NCBI RefSeq assembly: GCF_049075655.1
Contig: NZ_CP157522.1
Span: 192,001-256,000, forward strand
Direction of reading: 5' to 3'
From: Methanothermococcus sp. Ax23
GTDB lineage: Archaea > AGJL01 > Methanococci > Methanococcales > Methanococcaceae
DNA: 64,000 nt
In this document: positions 2,179 through 55,865 of the stretch, piece after piece
How positions within the stretch are numbered: position 1 is the stretch's first letter
How the letters are laid out: every line of letters starts with the position of its first letter
Translations under genes and position numbers: made by a program
The notes under the pieces: model-generated
What the model saw: only the letters and a program-made list of their open reading frames with translations
What the model was told of the DNA's origin: nothing
Databases searched by the model: none

Positions 2179-3684
2179 CTATAAATTACTTTTTATCTCT
2201 TCAATTATATTTTTAATATTAACATCAATCTCTTCAATCTCTTTTACAACTTCATTAGGTTCTTTATATTCGATTTCTTCTTTTTTATTTGGATTTTTGG
2301 CAGTTAAATCATAATCTCTTTTTTTAATCTCGTCAATGGAAACAATCCAACTATTTTCAGAAATTTCACGATTTTTAATTTTATTCAAAACATCCTCAAA
2401 ATCTTCATCTTTTATCCTTTGTTTTTTCGTATATTTGCCCTCTAACTCATAATACCAAATTTCTTTGGTTTTTCCCGTCTTCTCAAAAAATACAATATTT
2501 GTTTTAACTCCTGCTCCCATCTGACTAAATACACCCTGCGGTAGTGAGACAATGGCAAAAACATTAAATTTATTTAAGAGCTCTTCCCGAATTGTTTTGA
2601 ACTTTCCACCACCGAACATTATTTGACCCTCTGGAAGAATAACTCCTGCCCTTCCTCCATTTTTTAACTTCCTCATTATATATTGAAGTGCTAATGCCTC
2701 CGTAGATTGTATTTTGTGGGGGAAATTATCCTGAACCTTTTTATTCTCCCTACCACCAAATGGCGGATTTGTAATAATTATATCGTATTTTTCACTTTCT
2801 GGAACATTATGAACATCCTCATCTCCTAAGGAATTTCTCCTATAATAATTAGGAGTTAAAATGCCGTGCAAAACCATATTCATAGTCCCTAATAAATAAG
2901 GAAATGGCTTTTTTTCATGCCCATAAAGTGTTTTATACATCAAAGTTTCATGCTCTTGAACTGTCATCAATTCCCCGAGCTCATTCTGAATATATTTTAA
3001 TACCTCAATTAAAAAACCAGCAGAGCCTCCAAATGGGTCAAATACTTTTTCTCCTATTTTTGGTTTTATCACATTAATAATAAATCTTATAATAGGTCTC
3101 GGCGTATAAAATTCTCCGCCCCATCCTGCTTCATTACCCATATTTAATAGGAGCTCCTCATATATTTGAGATAAAACATGAGTATCCTCATAATCATCAG
3201 TATTAATATTATCAATTTTATTTATTACATCCACTAAATTATAAGTGGATTTCATTTTATTTCCTGAAATTTCTTTAAAAATGCTTGCAATTTTCTCCCT
3301 CCCGGGTGTTCCTTCCAAACTCCTCAGATATGGAAACAAAATATTATCTATGAAATAAACTAAGGTATCCTCTAAATCTTCTATTTCTTTAATCTCTTCA
3401 TCAACATCATCAACAAAATCCTTTAAACTCTCCTTAGGTTTTCCTATCCAGTCTCTTTTTGCCCAGTTTGACCATCTATATTTTTTATCGATTATGGGAA
3501 TATATTCCCTACCATCCATTAAAGCAGTTTCCTCCAACTCCTTTTCAACACTTTCAAACACTTTTAAAAACAAAAGCCACGACAATTGTTCCATATAATC
3601 CATAGCCCCAGAAGTTCCGTCGTCCTTTCTTAATATATCACATGCGGATTTTACTTCGCTTTTCACTATTGATTCTCTTTTCAT
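2179..3684 (-). CDS. hsdM: Type I R-M N6-adenine methyltransferase subunit
   Basis: GEFYTPR, DPFGGSAGF (motif I), NPPF (motif IV); adjacent to hsdS. Confidence 0.97.
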   Translation of the reverse strand: MKRESIVKSEVKSACDILRKDDGTSGAMDYMEQLSWLLFLKVFESVEKELEETALMDGREYIPIIDKKYRWSNWAKRDWIGKPKESLKDFVDDVDEEIKEIEDLEDTLVYFIDNILFPYLRSLEGTPGREKIASIFKEISGNKMKSTYNLVDVINKIDNINTDDYEDTHVLSQIYEELLLNMGNEAGWGGEFYTPRPIIRFIINVIKPKIGEKVFDPFGGSAGFLIEVLKYIQNELGELMTVQEHETLMYKTLYGHEKKPFPYLLGTMNMVLHGILTPNYYRRNSLGDEDVHNVPESEKYDIIITNPPFGGRENKKVQDNFPHKIQSTEALALQYIMRKLKNGGRAGVILPEGQIMFGGGKFKTIREELLNKFNVFAIVSLPQGVFSQMGAGVKTNIVFFEKTGKTKEIWYYELEGKYTKKQRIKDEDFEDVLNKIKNREISENSWIVSIDEIKKRDYDLTAKNPNKKEEIEYKEPNEVVKEIEEIDVNIKNIIEEIKSNL

Positions 3685-3824: not shown

Positions 3825-4025
3825 TTATTCAACCGTAGCAAAGCGAGTGGGCTATAAAATCCGTTAGGATTTTATTCAATCGGAGCGAAGCGGAGAGCTA
3901 TAAAAATCCCAAAGGGATTTTTATTCAATCACATCGAAGATGTGAGCTATAAAAATTACTTCGTAATTTTTATTCAACCACGAGCAAAGCGAGTGGGCTA
4001 TAAAATCCGTTAGGATTTTATTCAA
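3825..4025. repeat. Tandem array of four 47-49 nt double-hairpin modules
   Basis: Units 3833-3879, 3880-3928, 3929-3977, 3978-4025, each hairpin1-GCTA-hairpin2-TTCAA; the last unit overlaps the guaA stop codon. Confidence 0.9.
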
Positions 4026-4950
4026 ATTCAATTGTTGCCGGTGGTTTATCTGTAATATCTAAAACAACCCTTGCAACATTTGGAACTTCTGATGTGATTC
4101 TTTTACTTATTCTTTTCAATACACTGAATGGGAGCTCAGGCACACTTGCAGTCATTGCATCAAGGGATTCAACAAACCTTACTGCAACTACCCAATTGTA
4201 TTCTCTTATGTCTCCTTTAACTCCTGTTGCCTTTGTATCAAGCACAGCGGCAAAATACTGCCATAAATCTTTATCGAGACCTTCTTTTTCTATCTCTTCC
4301 TCAACTATGGCATTTGCTTCCCTGCACACTTCCAACTTTTCCTCTGTGATTTCCCCTAAAATTCTTACTGCAAGACCGGGTCCTGGGAATGGCTGTCTGT
4401 TTGCTATTTTATCTGGAAGCCCCAATTCTCTTGCCAATATTCTTACCTCATCTTTATATAATTCTCTCAACGGCTCAACAACTTCAAGCACCATTCCGCT
4501 TGGCAATGCTATGTTGTGGTGTGTTTTAATGTCCCCTTCACTTTCTATCCAATCTGGTGCAATAGTTCCCTGAACAAGAACCTCTTCACCGTTTTCCTTT
4601 GCAACTTCCTCAAATACTTCAATAAATAATCTTCCTATTATCTTCCTTTTCTCTTCTGGGTCATCTACTCCCTTTAATTCCTTTAAAAATAAGTCCTTTG
4701 CATTAATTATTTTTAAGTTAAGTCCCATATCTTCTTTAAATATTTTGTAAATTTCCTCTGCTTCATTTTTTCTCATAAGTCCTGTATCAACAAAGACTGC
4801 TAAAAGTCTGTCCCCTATTGCCCTGTCTGTAAGAACTGCGGCTACTGAACTATCTACGCCACCACTAAGTGCTATTATTGCCTTTTTGTCCCCTATTTGT
4901 TCCTTTATTTCTGAAATGGATTCTTCAATGAATTTTTTAGCATCAAACAT
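4018..4950 (-). CDS. guaAB: GMP synthase subunit B (ATPPase)
   Basis: [30 protein letters not shown]. Confidence 0.97.
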
Positions 4951-7243: not shown

Positions 7244-7558
7244 TTATTGTTCAGATGTTAATTTATAAATACTTTCCGCAACCTTTATCCATCTAATGTA
7301 TGAATACAACGATGCCTTTAAAATACTGAGCTCATCTGCAACAGTTTCTATAAATATTATGTTATTTTCAATTTTCATAATGCTCTTTGACCTTATCTGA
7401 GAATCAAGATGTTCTAAAAGTATGCTATCGTATATTATTTTTGCTTCATCTTCTGAACTGCATTCTATTTCCAAACTAAAAGATATATCAGACTTATGAT
7501 TAAATTTATCCACATTTATATTCAATTTACCCGCAGCATTAGATGTATTGGTGTTCAT
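7244..7558 (-). CDS. pcc1: KEOPS complex subunit Pcc1
   Basis: EAKIIYDSI...RS...I.A..LSILKASLYSYIRW pattern; sits before pfdB. Confidence 0.85.
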   Translation of the reverse strand: MNTNTSNAAGKLNINVDKFNHKSDISFSLEIECSSEDEAKIIYDSILLEHLDSQIRSKSIMKIENNIIFIETVADELSILKASLYSYIRWIKVAESIYKLTSEQ

Positions 7559-7622
7559 GATATCGTTTTTATTTATCTTTTTTATTTAACATATTTCCGC
7601 AAGAAGTCCCCACCCGTAAGGG

Positions 7623-7668
7623 ATTGAACAAAATCCTTCGGATTTTGTAGCCCTTCGCTTCGCTACGG
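7623..7668 (-). repeat. Double-hairpin module inserted into the IS left-end hairpin
   Basis: Minus strand CCGTAGCGAAGCGAAGG-GCTA-CAAAATCCGAAGGATTTTG-TTCAA-T; removing it restores CCCACCCGTAAGGGTGGG. Confidence 0.8.
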
Positions 7669-7746
7669 TGGGATGAATTGCGGACAAAATATATAAATGG
7701 TATAGTGATAACATACTATTTATAAGTTATCAAACTGTGATGCCCA

Positions 7747-8997
7747 ATGATAAGGACTTACAAGTTCAGGATTTATCCTTCAAAGAGTATCCAAAGAACA
7801 ATAGAGGAGCATCTAAATATATGTAGATACCTTTATAATTATCTTTTGGAACAAAAAACTAAGAATCCAAAACTAAACAAAATGGATACTCAAAAACTAA
7901 TTACAGAGCATAAGAGGGAGAATCCTGAACTTAAAAAAGTCCATTCAAAAGTATTACAGATGGTAAATAACAAGCTTTGGGGAAATCTCAAAGCATTAGG
8001 GGAACTAAAAAAGAATGGATTCAAAGTGGGGAAGTTAAGGTTCAAATCCTCTAAAAATCATTACAAAACATTAGAATACAATCAATCAGGTTTTAAGATT
8101 GATTATAACACTAAAAAACTAAAACTATCCAAGATTGGAGAAATTCCAATAGTATTACACAGAAACATCAAGGGAGAAGTTAAAGGAGTTATTATAAAAA
8201 AAGAACCTACTGGCAAGTGGTTTGCCTTCTTCCAAGTTGAGGAGGAACCTAAACCACTACCTAAAACTAACAAAGTTGTAGGTATCGATTTAGGAATCGA
8301 TGGTTATACCATCGATTCAGATGGTAATAAATTTGAAAATCCAAAGTTTATAGATAAGACATTGGATAAAATAAAGAGAGTTCAAAAGAACCTATCCCGA
8401 AAGGTTAAGGGTTCGAACAACTATAAAAAGACCAAACTAAAACTTATCAAGGTTTATGATAAACTAAACAATCAGAAAAATGATTTTCTACATAAGTTAT
8501 CTAGATACTACATAAATAACTACGATAAAATAATTTTAGAAGACTTAAATATAAAATCGATGGTTGAAAATGGAAAATGTAAGACCTTAAACCGTCATAT
8601 TCTTGACGGTTCATGGCGTAAATTCATAAATCTACTTCTCTACAAGGCGGAGGGTGCTGGTAGAGAAGTAATATTAGTAAATCCCCATTATACTTCTAAA
8701 AAATGTTCCAACTGCGGGCATGTTGTTAAAGACTTAAAACTTTCAGATAGAATCTTTTTTTGTCCTGTCTGCGGTTGGAAAATCGATAGGGATTATAACG
8801 CATCCCTAAATATATTAAAGTCAGGGCTGGGAGAGTCCGTTGTGCCTGCCGAGAGAAAACCTCTGCTCCAAACTATTTCTTATAAAGAAGTGGTTTTGGG
8901 GCAAGTTTTCTCAATGAATCAGGAAGCCTTGCCCGAAGGGCGAGGGCTACGAAAACCGAAAGGTTTTCGTTTAACCCCGTCCGTAAGGGCGGAGTAA
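7747..8997 (+). CDS. tnpB: RNA-guided endonuclease TnpB
   Basis: N-terminal YKFRIYP HTH, RuvC motifs GIDLG, LEDL and DRDYNA, zinc finger CSNC...CPVC. Confidence 0.96.
   Translation: MIRTYKFRIYPSKSIQRTIEEHLNICRYLYNYLLEQKTKNPKLNKMDTQKLITEHKRENPELKKVHSKVLQMVNNKLWGNLKALGELKKNGFKVGKLRFKSSKNHYKTLEYNQSGFKIDYNTKKLKLSKIGEIPIVLHRNIKGEVKGVIIKKEPTGKWFAFFQVEEEPKPLPKTNKVVGIDLGIDGYTIDSDGNKFENPKFIDKTLDKIKRVQKNLSRKVKGSNNYKKTKLKLIKVYDKLNNQKNDFLHKLSRYYINNYDKIILEDLNIKSMVENGKCKTLNRHILDGSWRKFINLLLYKAEGAGREVILVNPHYTSKKCSNCGHVVKDLKLSDRIFFCPVCGWKIDRDYNASLNILKSGLGESVVPAERKPLLQTISYKEVVLGQVFSMNQEALPEGRGLRKPKGFRLTPSVRAE
8927..8974 (+). repeat. Double-hairpin module inserted in frame in the tnpB 3' end / IS right end
   Basis: CCTTGCCCGAAGGGCGAGG-GCTA-CGAAAACCGAAAGGTTTTCG-TTTAA (48 nt); removing it restores QEAPSVRAE. 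Confidence 0.8.
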
Positions 8998-9045
8998 TTC
9001 ACTTGATTTTACGATAAAATTACATTTAATCATTATGTGGCAATA

Positions 9046-9546
9046 TTATTCGATTTCTAAAATCTTTAAAGATTTAACAATAATTAAAGGCCCTACCTTT
9101 TTATCATTTTCATAAAATTGTATATAAAATATATTCTTATCTGATGAAGAACCTTCAAAACACATCCTAAAAGGCGAATTACCATTAACTACTCCAAAAT
9201 CACTAAAAAAATCATAAAATAGTTTCCGATATTTTTTGGTGTTTCCCATGAACTCCATGCTTATTTTTCCTTCCAAATTTGCAGTTTCTTCTTCGCAGAC
9301 TTCTCTTTGAAGCTTTGCAGATATTAGTATAGATATTATTTTATTTCTATTAACATCATAAAACTTTATTTTTCCAGGGTTTCCTTTATATTCTTCTACG
9401 ACAATCAATTTGCTGTATTCATTGAGAATATCCTTTAATGGAGTTTTACCTCGAGTTAATATTTTTGCATTGAGTATTCTTGCCAAATCATTTACAAAGC
9501 TTCGTGTTCTTTGAGAAGGTTTTCTTGATGTTGTAATTACCATCAT
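9046..9546 (-). CDS. Brix/Imp4-domain ribosome biogenesis protein
   Basis: ITTSRKPSQRTRSF...RGK...GNPG. Confidence 0.92.
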   Translation of the reverse strand: MMVITTSRKPSQRTRSFVNDLARILNAKILTRGKTPLKDILNEYSKLIVVEEYKGNPGKIKFYDVNRNKIISILISAKLQREVCEEETANLEGKISMEFMGNTKKYRKLFYDFFSDFGVVNGNSPFRMCFEGSSSDKNIFYIQFYENDKKVGPLIIVKSLKILEIE

Positions 9547-40270: not shown

Positions 40271-40504
40271 GTCTCATTGCTGGTTTCGTTGCCGTCCCCA
40301 ACTCGACTTATGGGGTGAGACCCGCACCCTCCTACCCGCTACTGGATTCGCGGTTCGCTTGCGTTAGCAACGACATAAAACCTTTCGGTTTTAAGTTTTC
40401 CTTCGCTACTCGACGAAAATCTAAAAGATTTTCGGGAGTCATCGAATTCTTCGAATTCGATTCGACGCTTGGAAATGCAATGAAATGCGAAGCATTTCAT
40501 CTAA
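40271..40504 (-). other. GC-rich structured intergenic element (MITE or ncRNA candidate) loaded with hairpin modules
   Basis: GC-rich core 40271-40356, then hairpins at 40376-40393, 40414-40434, 40441-40461 and GCAA-hairpin-TCTAA at 40477-40504. Strand inferred. Confidence 0.5.
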
Positions 40505-40688
40505 TTGCTTACTTTGTATAATTTTTCATTTAAAGTCGGAAGAAATAGTATTAAAGTGATACTTACTATAAAACATAGTTCGTAATAAGTATTTAAAACT
40601 TATGGTATTATTATTTAACAATATTTGAAACATTTGGTTAAAAGTGTGTATGATATTTTTTAGGATAGAATATATTATTGGTGGTTAA

Positions 40689-52442: not shown

Positions 52443-52491
52443 TCGAACCGTAGATTCGAGCTATAAAAAATCCCTTTGGATTTTTATTCAA
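52443..52491 (+). repeat. Solo double-hairpin module between convergent genes
   Basis: TCGAACCGTAGATTCGA-GCTA-TAAAAAATCCCTTTGGATTTTTA-TTCAA. Confidence 0.85.
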
Positions 52492-52493
52492 TT

Positions 52494-53249
52494 TTATTTT
52501 AAATATTTATTTAAATACCCTCTTGGAGTAATCATTTTATTATCTACTATTTTTGTGTTTGAGTTTCCAATTATTAAGGTGGTGTTCATATCGATATAAT
52601 TCATATAATCATCTAAATTGCTTGTTAAATCATTCAAAGTGGTTATTTTATATTCTTCTGAATCTCTTCCAGCATTTTTAACGATTCCAATAACATAATT
52701 TATTTTTCGTTTTTCTGCATAATTTTTTATAACATCCAGAGTCTTTAAAAATGGCTCTTTTCTTGATTTACTTAATGGGTTATATATTGCAACAACAAAA
52801 TCCCCTTCCAATGCACATTTAACTCTGTTTAATATAACTTCCAATGGTGTGAGCAAATCACTTAAACTAATTACGCAAAAATCATGATTTAGCGGAGCTC
52901 CTAATATTGCCGAGCATATGCTTGCAGATGTTAAACCACTTATTACTTTTATGGGGACATCAATATTGTTTTTTTCTCGGAGCTCATAGGCAAGGGACGC
53001 CATGCCATAGATTGTAGCATCCCCACTTGATACAAGTGCGACATCTTTATCTTTCGCTTCATTTAGAGCATAACTTGTTCTATCAATTTCTTTTTTCATT
53101 CCAGATGTGTAAATTGGCTTGTTAAATCGTTTTATAAATTTTTCATAACCTTTATAGCAGACAATTAAATCGACATTGTTTAAAATAGCCTCTGCCTCTT
53201 CTGTAAAAAAATCTTTATTGCCCGGTCCTATTCCAACGATATAAAGCAT
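52494..53249 (-). CDS. cbiH: Precorrin-3B C17-methyltransferase
   Basis: VGIGPG, SSGDATIYGMA, GAPLNHDF, SLSDLLTP, MITPRGY. Confidence 0.93.
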   Translation of the reverse strand: MLYIVGIGPGNKDFFTEEAEAILNNVDLIVCYKGYEKFIKRFNKPIYTSGMKKEIDRTSYALNEAKDKDVALVSSGDATIYGMASLAYELREKNNIDVPIKVISGLTSASICSAILGAPLNHDFCVISLSDLLTPLEVILNRVKCALEGDFVVAIYNPLSKSRKEPFLKTLDVIKNYAEKRKINYVIGIVKNAGRDSEEYKITTLNDLTSNLDDYMNYIDMNTTLIIGNSNTKIVDNKMITPRGYLNKYLK

Positions 53250-53400: not shown

Positions 53401-53455
53401 AATTAATATTATAAAAATAGATATTTAAAGGTATCGAAAAATCCGAATAATGAAA

Positions 53456-53501
53456 TCAGGGCGAAGCAGAGAGCAATAAATTCCGAAGATTTTTGTTTTA
53501 A
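53456..53501 (+). repeat. Degenerate double-hairpin module
   Basis: TCAGGGCGAAGCAGAGA-GCAA-TAAATTCCGAAGATTTTTG-TTTTAA; resembles array unit 2. Confidence 0.55.
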
Positions 53502-53563
53502 TCGGAGCTCCGAAGAAGTATCATATAAATAATTTTACAATGTTCTTCACTTGGTTCTAAATG

Positions 53564-55493: not shown

Positions 55494-55865
55494 CTGACCT
55501 ACTCCAACGAGTGAACTCGTTGGGTTCTCGCTTACGGTAGTAAGCGAGCAACGAAATCACGAAGTGATTTCGTCTAATTTTAGTAGGGTTTAACCCTACA
55601 CGGGTGGCCAAGCCCACTACCCCTACCCATTAATGGGTTCAGGGCTACCTTTTGAACTTCCAACCACTACCAGCGGTAGAGTTTTCACTAACCCTACCCA
55701 TAGATACTTGGACTGGTAGCGTTACTTACTATTAATCTTCTCATATTTATATTTTACTACTTACTAGCCGATATAATGTCCGCCTCTCATCCAATCTCAT
55801 AAGAGATTTTACAAAACTATGTTTTGTATAACGATTAAAATCGTTGGCTTTCTCGGCGGTTTATC
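55494..55865 (-). mobile_element. Non-autonomous IS200/IS605 miniature element (PATE-like, 372 bp)
   Basis: On the minus strand it follows TTAC; LE guide AAAG before hairpin CCAACGA..TCGTT[insert]GG; RE GAAC-CCAACGAG.TTCA.CTCGTTGG...TCAG; no ORF. Confidence 0.85.
55528..55577 (+). repeat. Double-hairpin module abutting the right end of the mini-IS
   Basis: TCGCTTACGGTAGTAAGCGA-GCAA-CGAAATCACGAAGTGATTTCG-TCTAA. Confidence 0.75.

What the first reader, a model, noticed from the sequence alone, without database searches (positions are those of the whole stretch)
7590..9002. Both ends of the tnpB element are interrupted by hairpin modules
Seen: a 46-nt module splits the left-end stem, and a 48-nt module sits exactly between the right-end guide GAAG (8923-8926) and its hairpin, in frame, adding 16 residues (LPEGRGLRKPKGFRLT). 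Deleting each restores canonical ends. Established: TnpA needs the guide tetranucleotide at the foot of the hairpin to cut the terminal motif (here TCAC), and this region is also the omegaRNA. Inference: the modules target IS ends, and may immobilise the element while leaving an intact TnpB with an enlarged omegaRNA - hyperparasitism or domestication.
Basis: partly seen in the sequence, partly recalled or inferred. Interest (0 to 1): 0.78.

Follow-up and report, generated by a model that had tools for sequence, protein, structure and literature searches.

The report
Hairpin mini-repeats nested in transposon ends
Two roughly 48-base double-hairpin repeats really are inserted in both ends of this archaeal tnpB transposon, but they belong to a genome-wide family of tiny insertion elements that travel with mobile copies and do not appear to disable them.

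Summary
Window 7590-9002 is a tnpA-less IS605-type element with an intact TnpB gene. A 46-47 nt insert lies in the 3' arm of its left-end hairpin. A 48 nt in-frame insert lies between GAAG and the right-end hairpin. Relatives in sister genomes and in MITE-like derivatives lack these inserts and show the canonical ends.

Both inserts belong to one dispersed family of double-hairpin modules: 55 copies by nhmmer and 90 by covariance model in this genome. The family occurs in 9 of 23 related genomes. It also inserts in frame into unique genes, which resembles the palindromic elements reported for Methanocaldococcus jannaschii in 2005.

The modules recur at several positions in the ends of two unrelated tnpB families, and they co-occur with tnpB genomes, so targeting of IS ends is plausible.

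Immobilisation is not supported:
- Module-bearing ends are multi-copy in several genomes.
- They occur beside a tnpA gene.
- They make up 22 of 37 right ends of a second family.
- The sites of this copy and of copy B are empty in sister genomes, although the modules are older than those insertions.

How the modules move is unknown. Module presence or absence differs exactly between otherwise identical MITE copies, and this is the most intriguing open point.

The parts
7585..7589 (+). Target / presumed TAM TTTAA, immediately 5' of the element
   Evidence: All copies are preceded by TT(T)AA. An empty-site contig ends in TTTAA before 9003. The orthologous empty site in G016 reads ...ATATTAA|TTATTTT.
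7590..9002 (+). tnpA-less IS605-type element (copy A), 1413 nt
   Evidence: Similarity to copies B and C starts and stops here. A contig of run X1 joins 7588 to 9003. The locus is empty in G016 and G010.
7595..7684 (+). Left end: outer stem TTCCGCAA/TTGCGGA, GAAG 7603-7606, and hairpin CCCCACCC GTAA GGG...GGTGGG split by the module
   Evidence: Sequence. DNA fold z -5.6 with the outer stem and CCCACC/GGTGGG paired. Comparison with copies B and C.
7623..7669 (+). Left-end module ('A-type'). It has hairpin H1 AAAATCC TTC GGATTTT, then GTAGCCC, then the TTCGCTTCGCTAC core.
   Evidence: R1 match 7621-7674, 57.9 bits. The same module sits at the same position in G009 and G016 copies. Two compensatory pair changes in H1 are seen in contigs of run X4.
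7747..8997 (+). tnpB, 416 aa
   Evidence: Pfam OrfB_IS605 8e-27, Cas12f1-like_TNB 1.2e-24, HTH_OrfB_IS605 1.5e-9. It aligns to ISDra2 TnpB chains 8bf8/8exa over residues 4-361, E 3e-43, with the GIDLG, EDL and DRDYNA motifs kept.
8817..9002 (+). Structured 3' region (presumed omegaRNA scaffold) including the right end
   Evidence: RNAalifold on 14 copies gives stems with compensatory changes at 6 pairs, for example AU<->GC at alignment pairs 38/95, 40/93, 54/81 and 56/79. RNA fold z -6.0. Expression was not shown.
8923..8926 (+). GAAG, the tetranucleotide that abuts the hairpin foot in module-less relatives (presumed right guide)
   Evidence: The rule for IS608 comes from passages of PMC3201880.
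8927..8974 (-). Right-end module, same family in inverted orientation. On the + strand it reads CCTTGCCC GAAG GGCGAGG, GCTA, CGAAAACC GAAA GGTTTTCG, TTTAA.
   Evidence: R1 match on the minus strand, 34.3 bits, E 5e-8. It is identical in copies A, B and C and differs by 1 nt in G009. It is absent from 4 related full-length copies.
8975..9002 (+). Right-end hairpin CCCCGTCC GTAA GGGCGGAG and terminal TAATTCAC (cleavage motif TCAC 8999-9002)
9003..9021 (+). Flank that would supply the omegaRNA guide (TTGATTTTACGATAAAATT)
   Evidence: Copies diverge immediately after TCAC. This is an inference from the TnpB model; it was not tested.

Best explanation
Window 7590-9002 is a non-autonomous (tnpA-less) IS200/IS605-family element of the IS605 type. 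It has an apparently active TnpB gene and inserted 3' of TTTAA.

Both of its ends carry copies of a separate family of about 45-57 nt 'double-hairpin' miniature insertion elements. A module has these parts:
- a 5' ATTGAAY/ATTAGAY motif;
- an A/T-rich hairpin H1 of 9-10 bp, whose stem covaries;
- a second, more G+C-rich hairpin or mini-hairpin core GCTN(N)CGC.

The family is dispersed through this genome and some relatives. It also lands in frame in ordinary genes. It most resembles the 'palindromic repetitive elements with coding potential' reported for Methanocaldococcus jannaschii.

Shown:
- The modules are insertions.
- They have hit IS ends repeatedly, at different positions.
- Module-bearing ends are found at many loci.
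- Copy A landed at its present site after the split from sister genome G016.

Inferred:
- The modules were already in copy A when it moved.
- Each module folds on itself in the single-stranded DNA or RNA as two closed stem-loops. The flanking IS sequences (guide tetranucleotide, hairpin foot, stem halves) are then brought back together, so TnpA and TnpB/omegaRNA still work.
- The modules are therefore tolerated passengers that multiply by riding in IS and MITE copies. They are not brakes.
- How a module itself moves is unknown. The seamless presence or absence without target duplication, and the co-occurrence with tnpB elements, point to a single-strand, hairpin-dependent route linked to the IS machinery. 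Alternatively, copies may exchange modules by short-tract gene conversion.
For: Insertion status:
- Module-less right ends occur in L015, L023, L033, L038 and in MITE-like L005, L006, L030, L035.
- A left-end second module is present in 3 of 4 MITE copies and absent in the fourth.
- A 57-nt / 19-aa in-frame module sits in a GluRS-like gene of G000 and is absent from 5 of 5 orthologues.

One family:
- nhmmer finds 55 copies at E<1e-3.
- Model R1 finds 90 matches in G000 and matches in 9 of 23 genomes.
- R1 also finds the right-end module, which was not in its seed.
- H1 has 9 pairs, 6 of them with compensatory changes.

Recurrent hits in IS ends:
- Four positions are used in the left end: between GAAG and the foot, in the loop, in the 3' arm, and after ATGAAT. 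There are also nested inserts.
- The right end of family 1 is hit.
- The right end and the 5' coding part of a second tnpB family are hit.
- A G021 element with an intact tnpA has a module after ATGAAT.

Co-occurrence: all 7 genomes with 6 or more modules have tnpB over the Pfam cut-off. Of the 14 genomes without modules, 1 does.

Mobility with modules:
- The same left-end (A-type) module is seen in 4 G009 and 3 G016 copies with different flanks.
- The right-end module is seen in 3 G000 copies, 3 G009 copies and about 10 G016 places.
- G009 L014 has tnpA plus both kinds of module.
- G010 L015 and L023 are about 99% identical at different loci, with a split hairpin loop.
- 22 of 37 family-2 right ends carry the module, all with different flanks.
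- The site of copy A is empty in G016 (flank 93% identical), in G010, and in one environmental contig.
- The site of copy B is empty in G010 and G016.

Folding: the modules form separate hairpins and the IS hairpin is kept.

TnpB integrity.
Against: (1) The modules are much less diverged than the sequence around them.
- The right-end module has 0 of 48 differences among copies A, B and C, which overall are 88% identical.
- In family 2, between hairpin classes, the module differs at 0.5% of positions against 13.7% for the adjacent 33 nt.
- Module state needs at least 2 changes on the tree of 11 family-1 copies.
- It needs 8 changes on 37 family-2 ends, where shuffled labels give a mean of 11.5 and a minimum of 7.
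- So modules may have entered, or been copied into, elements after those elements had landed. That weakens 'multi-copy, therefore mobile'.

(2) G000 has no Y1 transposase (0 matches), so present-day mobility cannot be claimed.

(3) In IS608 the four bases directly 5' of the hairpin foot are needed to activate TnpA (PMC3201880). A 48-nt spacer might be expected to hurt. Tolerance here is inferred from natural copies and predicted folds only.

(4) No read-level RNA evidence shows an omegaRNA that contains the module.

(5) Identity with the published M. jannaschii elements could not be checked, because the paper is not held.
Confidence: 0.68

Rival explanations
1. The modules are hyperparasites that home to IS ends and immobilise the element by separating guide from hairpin and splitting the stem. 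This leaves a stranded or domesticated TnpB with an enlarged omegaRNA.
For: - The right-end module separates GAAG from the hairpin foot by 48 nt, and IS608 needs these adjacent.
- The modules are far less diverged than their flanks, as expected if they invaded copies that were already in place.
- G000 has no tnpA.
- Every full-length family-1 copy seen has at least one left-end module.
Against: - Near-identical G010 copies sit at different loci with a module-split hairpin loop.
- 22 module-bearing family-2 right ends have 22 different flanks.
- The sites of copies A and B are empty in sister genomes, while the modules are shared with those genomes' copies.
- Modules occur next to tnpA in G009 and next to an intact tnpA in G021.
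- The TnpB catalytic motifs are intact, and the gene is not fixed at one locus.
Confidence: 0.07
2. The modules spread among already inserted IS and MITE copies, either by site-specific insertion or by short-tract gene conversion between copies. Their presence at many loci then says little about whether module-bearing elements can transpose. The effect on transposition is open.
For: - Between-class divergence is 0.5% in the module against 13.7% in the adjacent right-end sequence.
- Copies identical over 119 flanking nt differ only in module presence. Examples are r1457292 against r993133 and r362946, and r948086 against r524412, r1542694 and r1132622.
- Module state is almost randomly placed on the tree: 8 changes, where shuffles give a minimum of 7.
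- In family 1 the right-end module is always linked to the neighbouring hairpin base G (CCCCG against CCCCT), as expected if a tract is copied.
- The three G000 copies have three different left-end architectures although their tnpB bodies form one clade.
Against: - It requires many separate exact events.
- A downstream conversion boundary would have to fall within about 7 nt in family 2.
- It does not explain the two G010 copies, which share complex composite left-end inserts and are about 99% identical throughout.
- It is compatible with, and not exclusive of, the best explanation.
Confidence: 0.17
3. The modules are adaptive parts of these IS in hyperthermophiles. Examples would be extra stable stem-loops that stabilise the omegaRNA or the single-stranded ends, or that bind a host or IS protein. 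On this view selection keeps them, and tolerance alone is not the reason they persist.
For: - Sequence conservation of the modules within IS families is extreme.
- The module-bearing form is the majority in family 2, at 22 of 37.
- The H2 core GCTN(N)CGC is the complement of the 'extraordinarily stable' mini-hairpin DNA motif GCGN(N)AGC (abstract of PMC13037366). It is present in 40 of 55 modules against about 0.4 expected. This count is partly circular, because the family was seeded on this motif.
- H1 stems covary.
Against: - Module-less elements also persist and include recently moved copies (L015 and L023 have a module-less right end).
- Positions and orientations in the ends are not fixed.
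- The same family sits in unrelated genes and intergenic arrays.
- There are no functional data.
Confidence: 0.08

Closest known systems
IS200/IS605 family elements with TnpB (IS608 of Helicobacter pylori, ISDra2 of Deinococcus radiodurans)
   Same: - TnpB with OrfB_IS605, zinc-ribbon/TNB and HTH domains, alignable to ISDra2 TnpB.
- Subterminal hairpins at both ends, with no terminal inverted repeats.
- Seamless insertion 3' of a short target (TTTAA).
- The left cleavage point lies about 18 nt 5' of the hairpin foot and the right end 8 nt 3' of it. The figures for IS608 are 19 and 10.
- A related copy carries a Y1 tnpA.
   Different: - This copy and this genome have no tnpA.
- Both ends carry foreign double-hairpin inserts, one in the hairpin arm and one between the presumed guide and the hairpin foot. 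To my knowledge, and in the searches, this is not described for IS608 or ISDra2.
Palindromic repetitive elements with coding potential (MJRE) of Methanocaldococcus jannaschii, Suyama, Lathe and Bork, FEBS Lett 2005
   Same: Short palindromic repeats in a related methanogen lineage, found intergenically and as in-frame insertions in protein genes. This is as stated by citing papers PMC2229807 and PMC2996958. Here I saw 55-90 copies, 8 inside long ORFs of unique genes, and one verified 19-aa insertion.
   Different: - Sequence identity with MJRE1-3 could not be tested, because the paper is not held. The element names and counts are recalled, not seen.
- Nesting in IS605 ends and in the omegaRNA region, and the link with tnpB genomes, are not mentioned in the passages I could read.
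REP/BIME sequences and their Y1 transposase relatives (RAYT/TnpA-REP) in bacteria
   Same: - Small G+C-containing palindromes, often preceded by GTAG. Many modules have GTAG between H1 and H2.
- Tandem arrays (window 3828-4028).
- They resemble IS200/IS605 end hairpins, and a single-strand HUH mechanism has been proposed (abstracts of PMC3333891 and PMC8266576 in the listing).
   Different: - No RAYT or Y1 gene in G000, and such a gene in only 3 of the 9 module-bearing genomes.
- The modules have two hairpins and occur inside genes.
- This is an archaeal host.
Rickettsia palindromic elements and similar 'selfish' in-frame palindromes
   Same: In-frame insertion of a short palindromic repeat into housekeeping genes without breaking them (passage of PMC2996958; GluRS-like case here).
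   Different: Different organisms and sequences. No link to IS ends is reported there, in the passages I saw.
PATE/MITE-like deletion derivatives of IS200/IS605
   Same: The genome holds tnpB-less derivatives with both ends. These include the family-1-like copies at C1:334.6k, 497.4k, 986.4k and 1036.3k, and about 30 family-2 MITEs.
   Different: The modules themselves are not such derivatives. They lack the IS end hairpins and cleavage motifs, and they are inserted inside those derivatives.

Membership tests
IS200/IS605 family (IS605-type, tnpB-bearing) | TnpB/OrfB protein with RuvC-like and zinc-ribbon (TNB) domains | tested here: met
   Pfam OrfB_IS605 8e-27, Cas12f1-like_TNB 1.2e-24, HTH 1.5e-9. 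Alignment to ISDra2 TnpB, E 3e-43, with the GIDLG, EDL and DRDYNA motifs kept. That these motifs are the catalytic D-E-D is recalled.
IS200/IS605 family (IS605-type, tnpB-bearing) | Subterminal imperfect hairpins at both ends, no terminal inverted repeats | tested here: met
   Left hairpin CCCCACCC GTAA GGG..GGTGGG and right hairpin CCCCGTCC GTAA GGGCGGAG on the same strand.
IS200/IS605 family (IS605-type, tnpB-bearing) | Seamless insertion 3' of a short conserved target, no target duplication | tested here: met
   All copies follow TT(T)AA. Empty sites are seen in an X1 contig and in G016 and G010, without duplication.
IS200/IS605 family (IS605-type, tnpB-bearing) | Y1 (HUH) transposase TnpA | tested here: not met
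   Absent from this copy and from the whole genome (PF01797: 0 matches). A related copy, G009 L014, has a tnpA that looks frameshifted. The window copy is therefore a non-autonomous member.
IS200/IS605 family (IS605-type, tnpB-bearing) | omegaRNA from the 3' end of tnpB plus the right end | tested here: inconclusive
   A conserved structure with 6 compensatory pairs lies upstream of the module, and the fold has z -6.0. Rfam has no match. Contigs of RNA libraries cannot show the transcript.
Palindromic repetitive elements with coding potential (MJRE, M. jannaschii) | Short palindromic repeat, many dispersed copies | tested here: met
   55 copies by nhmmer and 90 by R1 in G000. The H1 hairpin covaries.
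Palindromic repetitive elements with coding potential (MJRE, M. jannaschii) | In-frame insertion in protein genes without disrupting them | tested here: met
   A 19-aa insert in the GluRS-like protein is absent in 5 of 5 orthologues. 8 of the 24 unique-context copies lie in ORFs of 100 aa or more. At all 10 places examined an open frame runs through the module.
Palindromic repetitive elements with coding potential (MJRE, M. jannaschii) | Sequence match to the published MJRE1-3 consensus | not testable with these tools
   The paper is not held. Only its citation and one-sentence summaries were seen.
REP/BIME with RAYT | Associated Y1 transposase-like gene (RAYT) in the same genome | tested here: not met
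   PF01797 has 0 matches in G000. It is present in 3 of the 9 module-bearing genomes and 0 of the 14 others.
REP/BIME with RAYT | Clusters of repeats in regular arrays | tested here: met
   Four head-to-tail modules at window 3828-4028. Further clusters lie at C1:365.0k, 560.1k and 1587.5k. They were not checked for alternating orientation.
Classical MITE (terminal inverted repeats plus target duplication) | Terminal inverted repeats and a fixed-length target-site duplication | tested here: not met
   Five filled/empty comparisons (GluRS gene, family-2 right end, family-1 right end, and left-end positions B and MITE-second) show no consistent duplication. At most 1-3 ambiguous bases are shared. 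The ends ATTGGA...TCCGAT are only weakly inverted.

The most novel reading that the evidence does not exclude
The double-hairpin modules are an archaeal counterpart of REP/BIME elements: autonomous-looking but enzyme-less single-strand mini-transposons that depend on IS200/IS605 machinery.

On this reading they home seamlessly to the foot, arms and loops of IS end hairpins, and less often to other DNA. They excise just as seamlessly. They thereby remodel TnpA substrates and add stem-loops to natural omegaRNAs without killing them.

This would explain three observations:
- the exact presence or absence of an identical 49-nt module among otherwise identical MITE copies;
- its presence in right ends whose hairpins differ by about 14%;
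- the genome-level co-occurrence of modules with tnpB elements.
Probability: 0.25. Interest if true: 0.8.

Novelty: new variant of a known kind. Interest (0 to 1): 0.55.

Why it matters
IS200/IS605 ends are among the best understood transposase substrates, and their right ends double as omegaRNA scaffolds for TnpB, the ancestor of Cas12.

Natural elements seem to keep moving with 46-95 nt of foreign hairpins in three places: the hairpin arm, the loop, and between guide and foot. These are free experiments on what TnpA and TnpB tolerate. They show where omegaRNA scaffolds accept insertions, which is useful for engineering thermostable TnpB systems.

The modules themselves are a poorly understood class of tiny mobile DNA in hyperthermophilic methanogens. 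The tie to tnpB-bearing genomes and the exact gain or loss at IS ends give a concrete handle on how they move. As far as I could find, that question has been open since their description in 2005.

If the modules are only passengers, the finding is a tidy case of nested mobile DNA and not a new mechanism.

Tried and rejected
Things tried that led nowhere:
- Rfam on 7400-9200 gave only a chance-level hit (tpke11, E 0.5).
- The 2005 MJRE paper is not held, so the module consensus could not be compared with it.
- Literature searches found nothing on hairpin inserts in these IS ends. One search combined Methanocaldococcus, repetitive elements, hairpin and IS605 and returned 29 papers, of which 20 were listed. 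Another combined TnpB and Methanocaldococcus and returned 5 papers. I saw only listings and abstract starts, and supplements were not opened.

RNA evidence:
- The runs found are kept as contigs only.
- Contigs of run X4 (an RNA-Seq library of 'organism A', 90-95% alike) cover the left end, the tnpB start and part of the right end.
- They cannot show a transcript, its ends or its strand, so no claim of omegaRNA expression is made.
- Parts without cover in X1 and X4 mean nothing.

Ideas rejected:
- Chance palindromes were rejected on the shuffles and the model match.
- A native end structure shared by all members was rejected because module-less relatives exist.
- BHB-type mini-introns were considered but not tested. 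The in-gene copies keep the frame open, so splicing is not needed.
- A K-turn or C/D-box reading of the GATGA-like 5' motif was looked at by eye only and gave no convincing fit.
- A uniform target motif for module insertion was not found. Flanks are often ...AA|ATT..., but left-end positions A and C and the family-1 right end do not fit.

Incomplete checks:
- The locus of copy C could not be compared with sister genomes, because the flanks match poorly.
- The up-60 divergence (14.8%) is an ungapped count and may be inflated by 1-nt indels, so I rely on the right-end 33-nt figure.
- In one search, 21 of the 22 module-bearing ends were used. One, with a 2-nt deletion in the module, was dropped.
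- In one search, 2 of 25 pattern hits were dropped as not module-like.
- In one search, 1 of 38 anchor hits was a palindromic false hit.
- The first tree caught only 7 of 12 loci because my anchors were too strict. One search, with 11 loci, replaces it.
- Two of the four folds (L002 and L003) used wrong coordinates and are not used.
Full report
WHAT IS THERE

The 416-aa ORF at 7747-8997 is a TnpB. Pfam gives OrfB_IS605 8e-27, Cas12f1-like_TNB 1.2e-24 and HTH_OrfB_IS605 1.5e-9. It aligns to ISDra2 TnpB chains (8bf8/8exa) over residues 4-361 at E 3e-43, with the GIDLG, EDL and DRDYNA motifs kept. That these motifs are the RuvC acidic residues is my recollection.

The genome (G000) has 1.67 Mb, 2 contigs, 32% G+C and is 98.9% complete. 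It holds three copies of this element:
- copy A, in the window;
- copy B, at C1:336350-337791;
- copy C, at C1:1308507-1309835.

THE OBSERVATION

The left end reads as follows:
- TTCCGCAA GAAG T CCCCACCC GTAA GGG;
- then a 46-47 nt insert (7623/4-7669);
- then GGTGGG ATGAAT TGCGGA.

The right end reads as follows:
- GAAG (8923-8926);
- a 48 nt insert (8927-8974);
- CCCCGTCC GTAA GGGCGGAG TAATTCAC.

The 48 nt are in frame and add LPEGRGLRKPKGFRLT.

Natural module-less versions exist. Right ends reading CAGGAAG|CCCCTTCCGTAAGGGAGGGGTAATTCAC occur in these places:
- two full-length copies of G010 (L015, L023);
- two of G009 (L033, L038);
- MITE-like derivatives (L005, L006, L030, L035).

Copies B and C and G009 L014 show the unsplit left hairpin.

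WHAT THE INSERTS ARE

The three G000 copies all have a left-end insert, but at three different places:
- inside the 3' arm (copy A);
- after ATGAAT (copy B);
- between GAAG and the hairpin foot (copy C).

G010 copies have about 95 nt of stacked hairpins inside the GT|AA loop, plus one insert after ATGAAT. G009 and G016 copies have A plus B positions, and two of them have a further insert nested in the A module.

MITE-like derivatives in G000 have the C-position module, 98% identical to that of copy C. Three of the four also have a second module after the hairpin. The fourth is an exact empty site.

Evidence that all these are one family:
- A pattern for the conserved core (TTCGCTN(N)CGCT) hits 25 places, 23 of them module-like.
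- Iterated nhmmer finds 55 copies at E<1e-3.
- A covariance model (R1) built from 20 copies has a 9-bp hairpin H1, and 6 of the 9 pairs show compensatory changes.
- R1 gives 90 matches in G000, where 150 of 2778 candidates were scored.
- In the window R1 finds the left module (57.9 bits). It also finds, on the minus strand, the right module (34.3 bits, E 5e-8), which was not in the seed.

The two inserts are therefore inverted relatives, as the repeat finder had hinted (I1).

Of the 55 copies, 31 lie in repeated or IS context and 24 in unique DNA. Eight of the unique-context copies lie inside ORFs of 100 aa or more.

One in-gene copy was checked. A GluRS-like gene of G000 has a 57-nt, 19-aa in-frame insert exactly at the module. 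It is absent from all 5 orthologues examined, in G010, G009, G001, G015 and G008.

[quoted passage not shown] 2005; passages of PMC2229807 and PMC2996958). The paper itself is not held, so sequence identity is untested.

The core GCTN(N)CGC is present in 40 of 55 modules against about 0.4 expected. This count is partly circular, because the family was seeded on the motif. The core is the complement of GCGN(N)AGC, described as an extraordinarily stable mini-hairpin DNA (abstract of PMC13037366).

DO THE MODULES TARGET IS ENDS?

Independent events in IS sequence are many:
- four positions in the family-1 left end;
- nested inserts;
- the family-1 right end;
- an extra insert in the 3' region of G016 L016;
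- a module after ATGAAT in a different element of G021 that has an intact 143-aa tnpA.

A second, unrelated tnpB family of G000 is also hit. It has a module in the 5' coding part of all 7 copies, and a 49-nt module just 5' of AGAA plus the right hairpin in 22 of 37 right ends.

Across 23 genomes of the taxonomic family, modules are found in 9. The counts are G000 90, G020 90, G016 44, G009 39, G022 23, G021 17, G010 6, G017 4 and G018 3.

All 7 genomes with 6 or more modules have tnpB over the Pfam cut-off. Of the 14 genomes with no module, one has it, as a broken copy. Y1 transposase matches occur in 3 genomes, all of them module-bearing. Related genomes are not independent, so this is a hint and not a statistic.

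IS ends are also non-coding and may simply tolerate inserts. I rate true targeting at about 0.6.

DO THE MODULES IMMOBILISE THE ELEMENT?

The evidence is against it.
1. The A-type left module, 2 nt different, sits at the same position in 4 G009 and 3 G016 copies with different flanks.
2. The right module, 0-1 nt different, is in 3 G000 copies, 3 G009 copies and about 10 G016 places.
3. G009 L014 has the left module, a frameshifted-looking tnpA, tnpB and the right module.
4. G010 L015 and L023 differ by under 1% in 1 kb, lie at different loci, and share the loop-splitting inserts.
5. The 22 module-bearing family-2 right ends all have different flanks.
6. The insertion site of copy A is empty in three sources.
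   - G016: the flank is 93% identical and reads ...ATATTAA|TTATTTTAATAAAATTACATT.
   - G010.
   - One 196-nt contig of a vent metatranscriptome library. It has depth 5.4 and joins 7588 to 9003, with 14 other letters in between that end in TTTAA.
7. The site of copy B is empty in G010 and G016.

Both modules of copy A are shared with copies in G009 and G016, so they are older than this insertion. The simplest reading is that the element moved with them.

Predicted folds fit this reading. The right module forms two closed hairpins beside an intact end hairpin. In the left end the outer stem and CCCACC/GGTGGG still pair around the module.

WHAT SPEAKS THE OTHER WAY

The modules are oddly uniform.
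- The right module is identical in copies that are 88% alike overall.
- In family 2, nucleotide diversity is 0.0095 in the module against 0.063 in the next 33 nt.
- Between hairpin classes it is 0.5% against 13.7%.

Module state is also scattered on the trees.
- It needs at least 2 changes on a tree of 11 family-1 tnpB bodies.
- It needs 8 changes on 37 family-2 ends, where 500 label shuffles gave a mean of 11.5 and a minimum of 7.
- Copies identical over 119 flanking nt differ only by the module.

In family 1 the module is always linked to a G in the adjacent hairpin arm (CCCCG against CCCCT).

So modules are gained, lost or copied between elements exactly and often. The possible routes are site-specific insertion, seamless excision, or short-tract conversion. 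Some multi-copy counts could therefore post-date transposition.

Three further caveats apply. G000 has no Y1 transposase at all, so nothing can be said about present mobility. In IS608 the four bases directly 5' of the hairpin foot are needed to activate TnpA and to pick the cleavage site (passages of PMC3201880). Tolerance of a 48-nt spacer remains an inference.

THE omegaRNA QUESTION

The 3' region 8817-8926 is conserved among 14 copies and has stems with compensatory changes at 6 pairs, as expected of an omegaRNA scaffold. The module lies between this scaffold and the terminal hairpin, so the RNA would gain two stem-loops with GAAG and GAAA loops.

Rfam has no model that matches. The public RNA libraries are available only as contigs, which cannot show a transcript.

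One useful by-product came from contigs of run X4. They carry an orthologous A-type left module with two double compensatory changes in H1: 7634/7642 T-A to C-G, and 7635/7641 C-G to T-A.

COMPARISON AND VERDICT

The element is a non-autonomous member of the IS200/IS605 family. The inserts are members of a dispersed double-hairpin repeat family of the kind reported in M. jannaschii, with REP/BIME-like traits but no RAYT.

Three things appear not to be described in what I could search:
- the recurrent nesting in the functional hairpins of IS605 ends and in the omegaRNA region;
- the apparent tolerance of that nesting by transposition;
- the exact on/off polymorphism among identical MITE copies.

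The inference of immobilisation or domestication is not supported. The notion of a parasite of a parasite survives in the milder form of a hitch-hiker.

I score interest at 0.55 and rate the finding a new variant of a known kind.

Noticed in passing
window 3828-4028 (-): Four modules of the same family lie head to tail directly after the end of a gene. Each unit is about 48-50 nt (ATTGAATAAAA-hairpin-TATAGC-second hairpin). This is a BIME-like array.
   Followed up: partly
window 55537-55580 (-) and surroundings: A MITE of the second tnpB family, whose right end carries the 49-nt module. It is one of the 22 of 37 such right ends in the genome.
   Followed up: partly
window 40450-40507 (-), 53450-53503 (-), 52450-52494 (-): Further, weaker matches to module model R1 (26.4, 23.3 and 21.9 bits). 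Their context was not examined.
   Followed up: no
G000 C1:130888, 894101, 1075470, 1125374, 1279248, 1499273, 1504654: All 7 copies of the second tnpB family carry a module (ATTAGACGAAAACC TTCG GGTTTTCG TTGCTCGCTTGC TAC GCAAGCGA) inside the conserved 5' part of the gene region. No module-less relative was looked for.
   Followed up: partly
L064 (G000 C1:1007300-1009500), module at C1:1008555-1008605: A GluRS-like gene has a 57-nt / 19-aa in-frame module insert (IGQKSQSDFCSSSLASLTP region), absent from five orthologues. A very similar peptide (VEQKSQSDFCSSPFASL) is encoded by the module at C1:567591-567640.
   Followed up: yes
L016 (G016:C46), about 40 nt downstream of the AAAGTCAGGGCTGGG anchor: An extra insert of about 52 nt with two hairpins lies inside the tnpB 3' / omegaRNA region. 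It is followed by an internal GGAGGGGAGTAATTCAC that looks like a second right-end terminus.
   Followed up: no
L022 and L028 (G009), left end: The A-type module itself contains a nested insert of about 45 nt (TTTCCGAACAATAGTGAGGAAAACTTAAAACCGTTAGGTTTTAGGT). This is a module within a module within an IS end.
   Followed up: partly
L014 (G009:C1:316376-320628), 2755-3170 on the minus strand: The tnpA of this full-length copy is split over at least two frames (ORFs of 62 aa and shorter; Pfam Y1_Tnp matches in two pieces). It is probably a pseudogene. L033, L038 and L028 keep only remnants of it.
   Followed up: partly
copies A and B, roughly window 8560-9002 against C1:337340-337786: By eye in the alignment, the last 400 nt or so of copies A and B are nearly identical, while the rest differs by about 12%. 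This suggests recombination or conversion between copies. It was not quantified.
   Followed up: no
G020 (other genus), e.g. C1:461229-461262, 70752-70791, 1011597-1011641: G020 has 90 module matches but only 3 tnpB matches and no Y1 transposase. Several stand-alone modules there are 91-97% identical to the A-type left-end module of the window copy.
   Followed up: no
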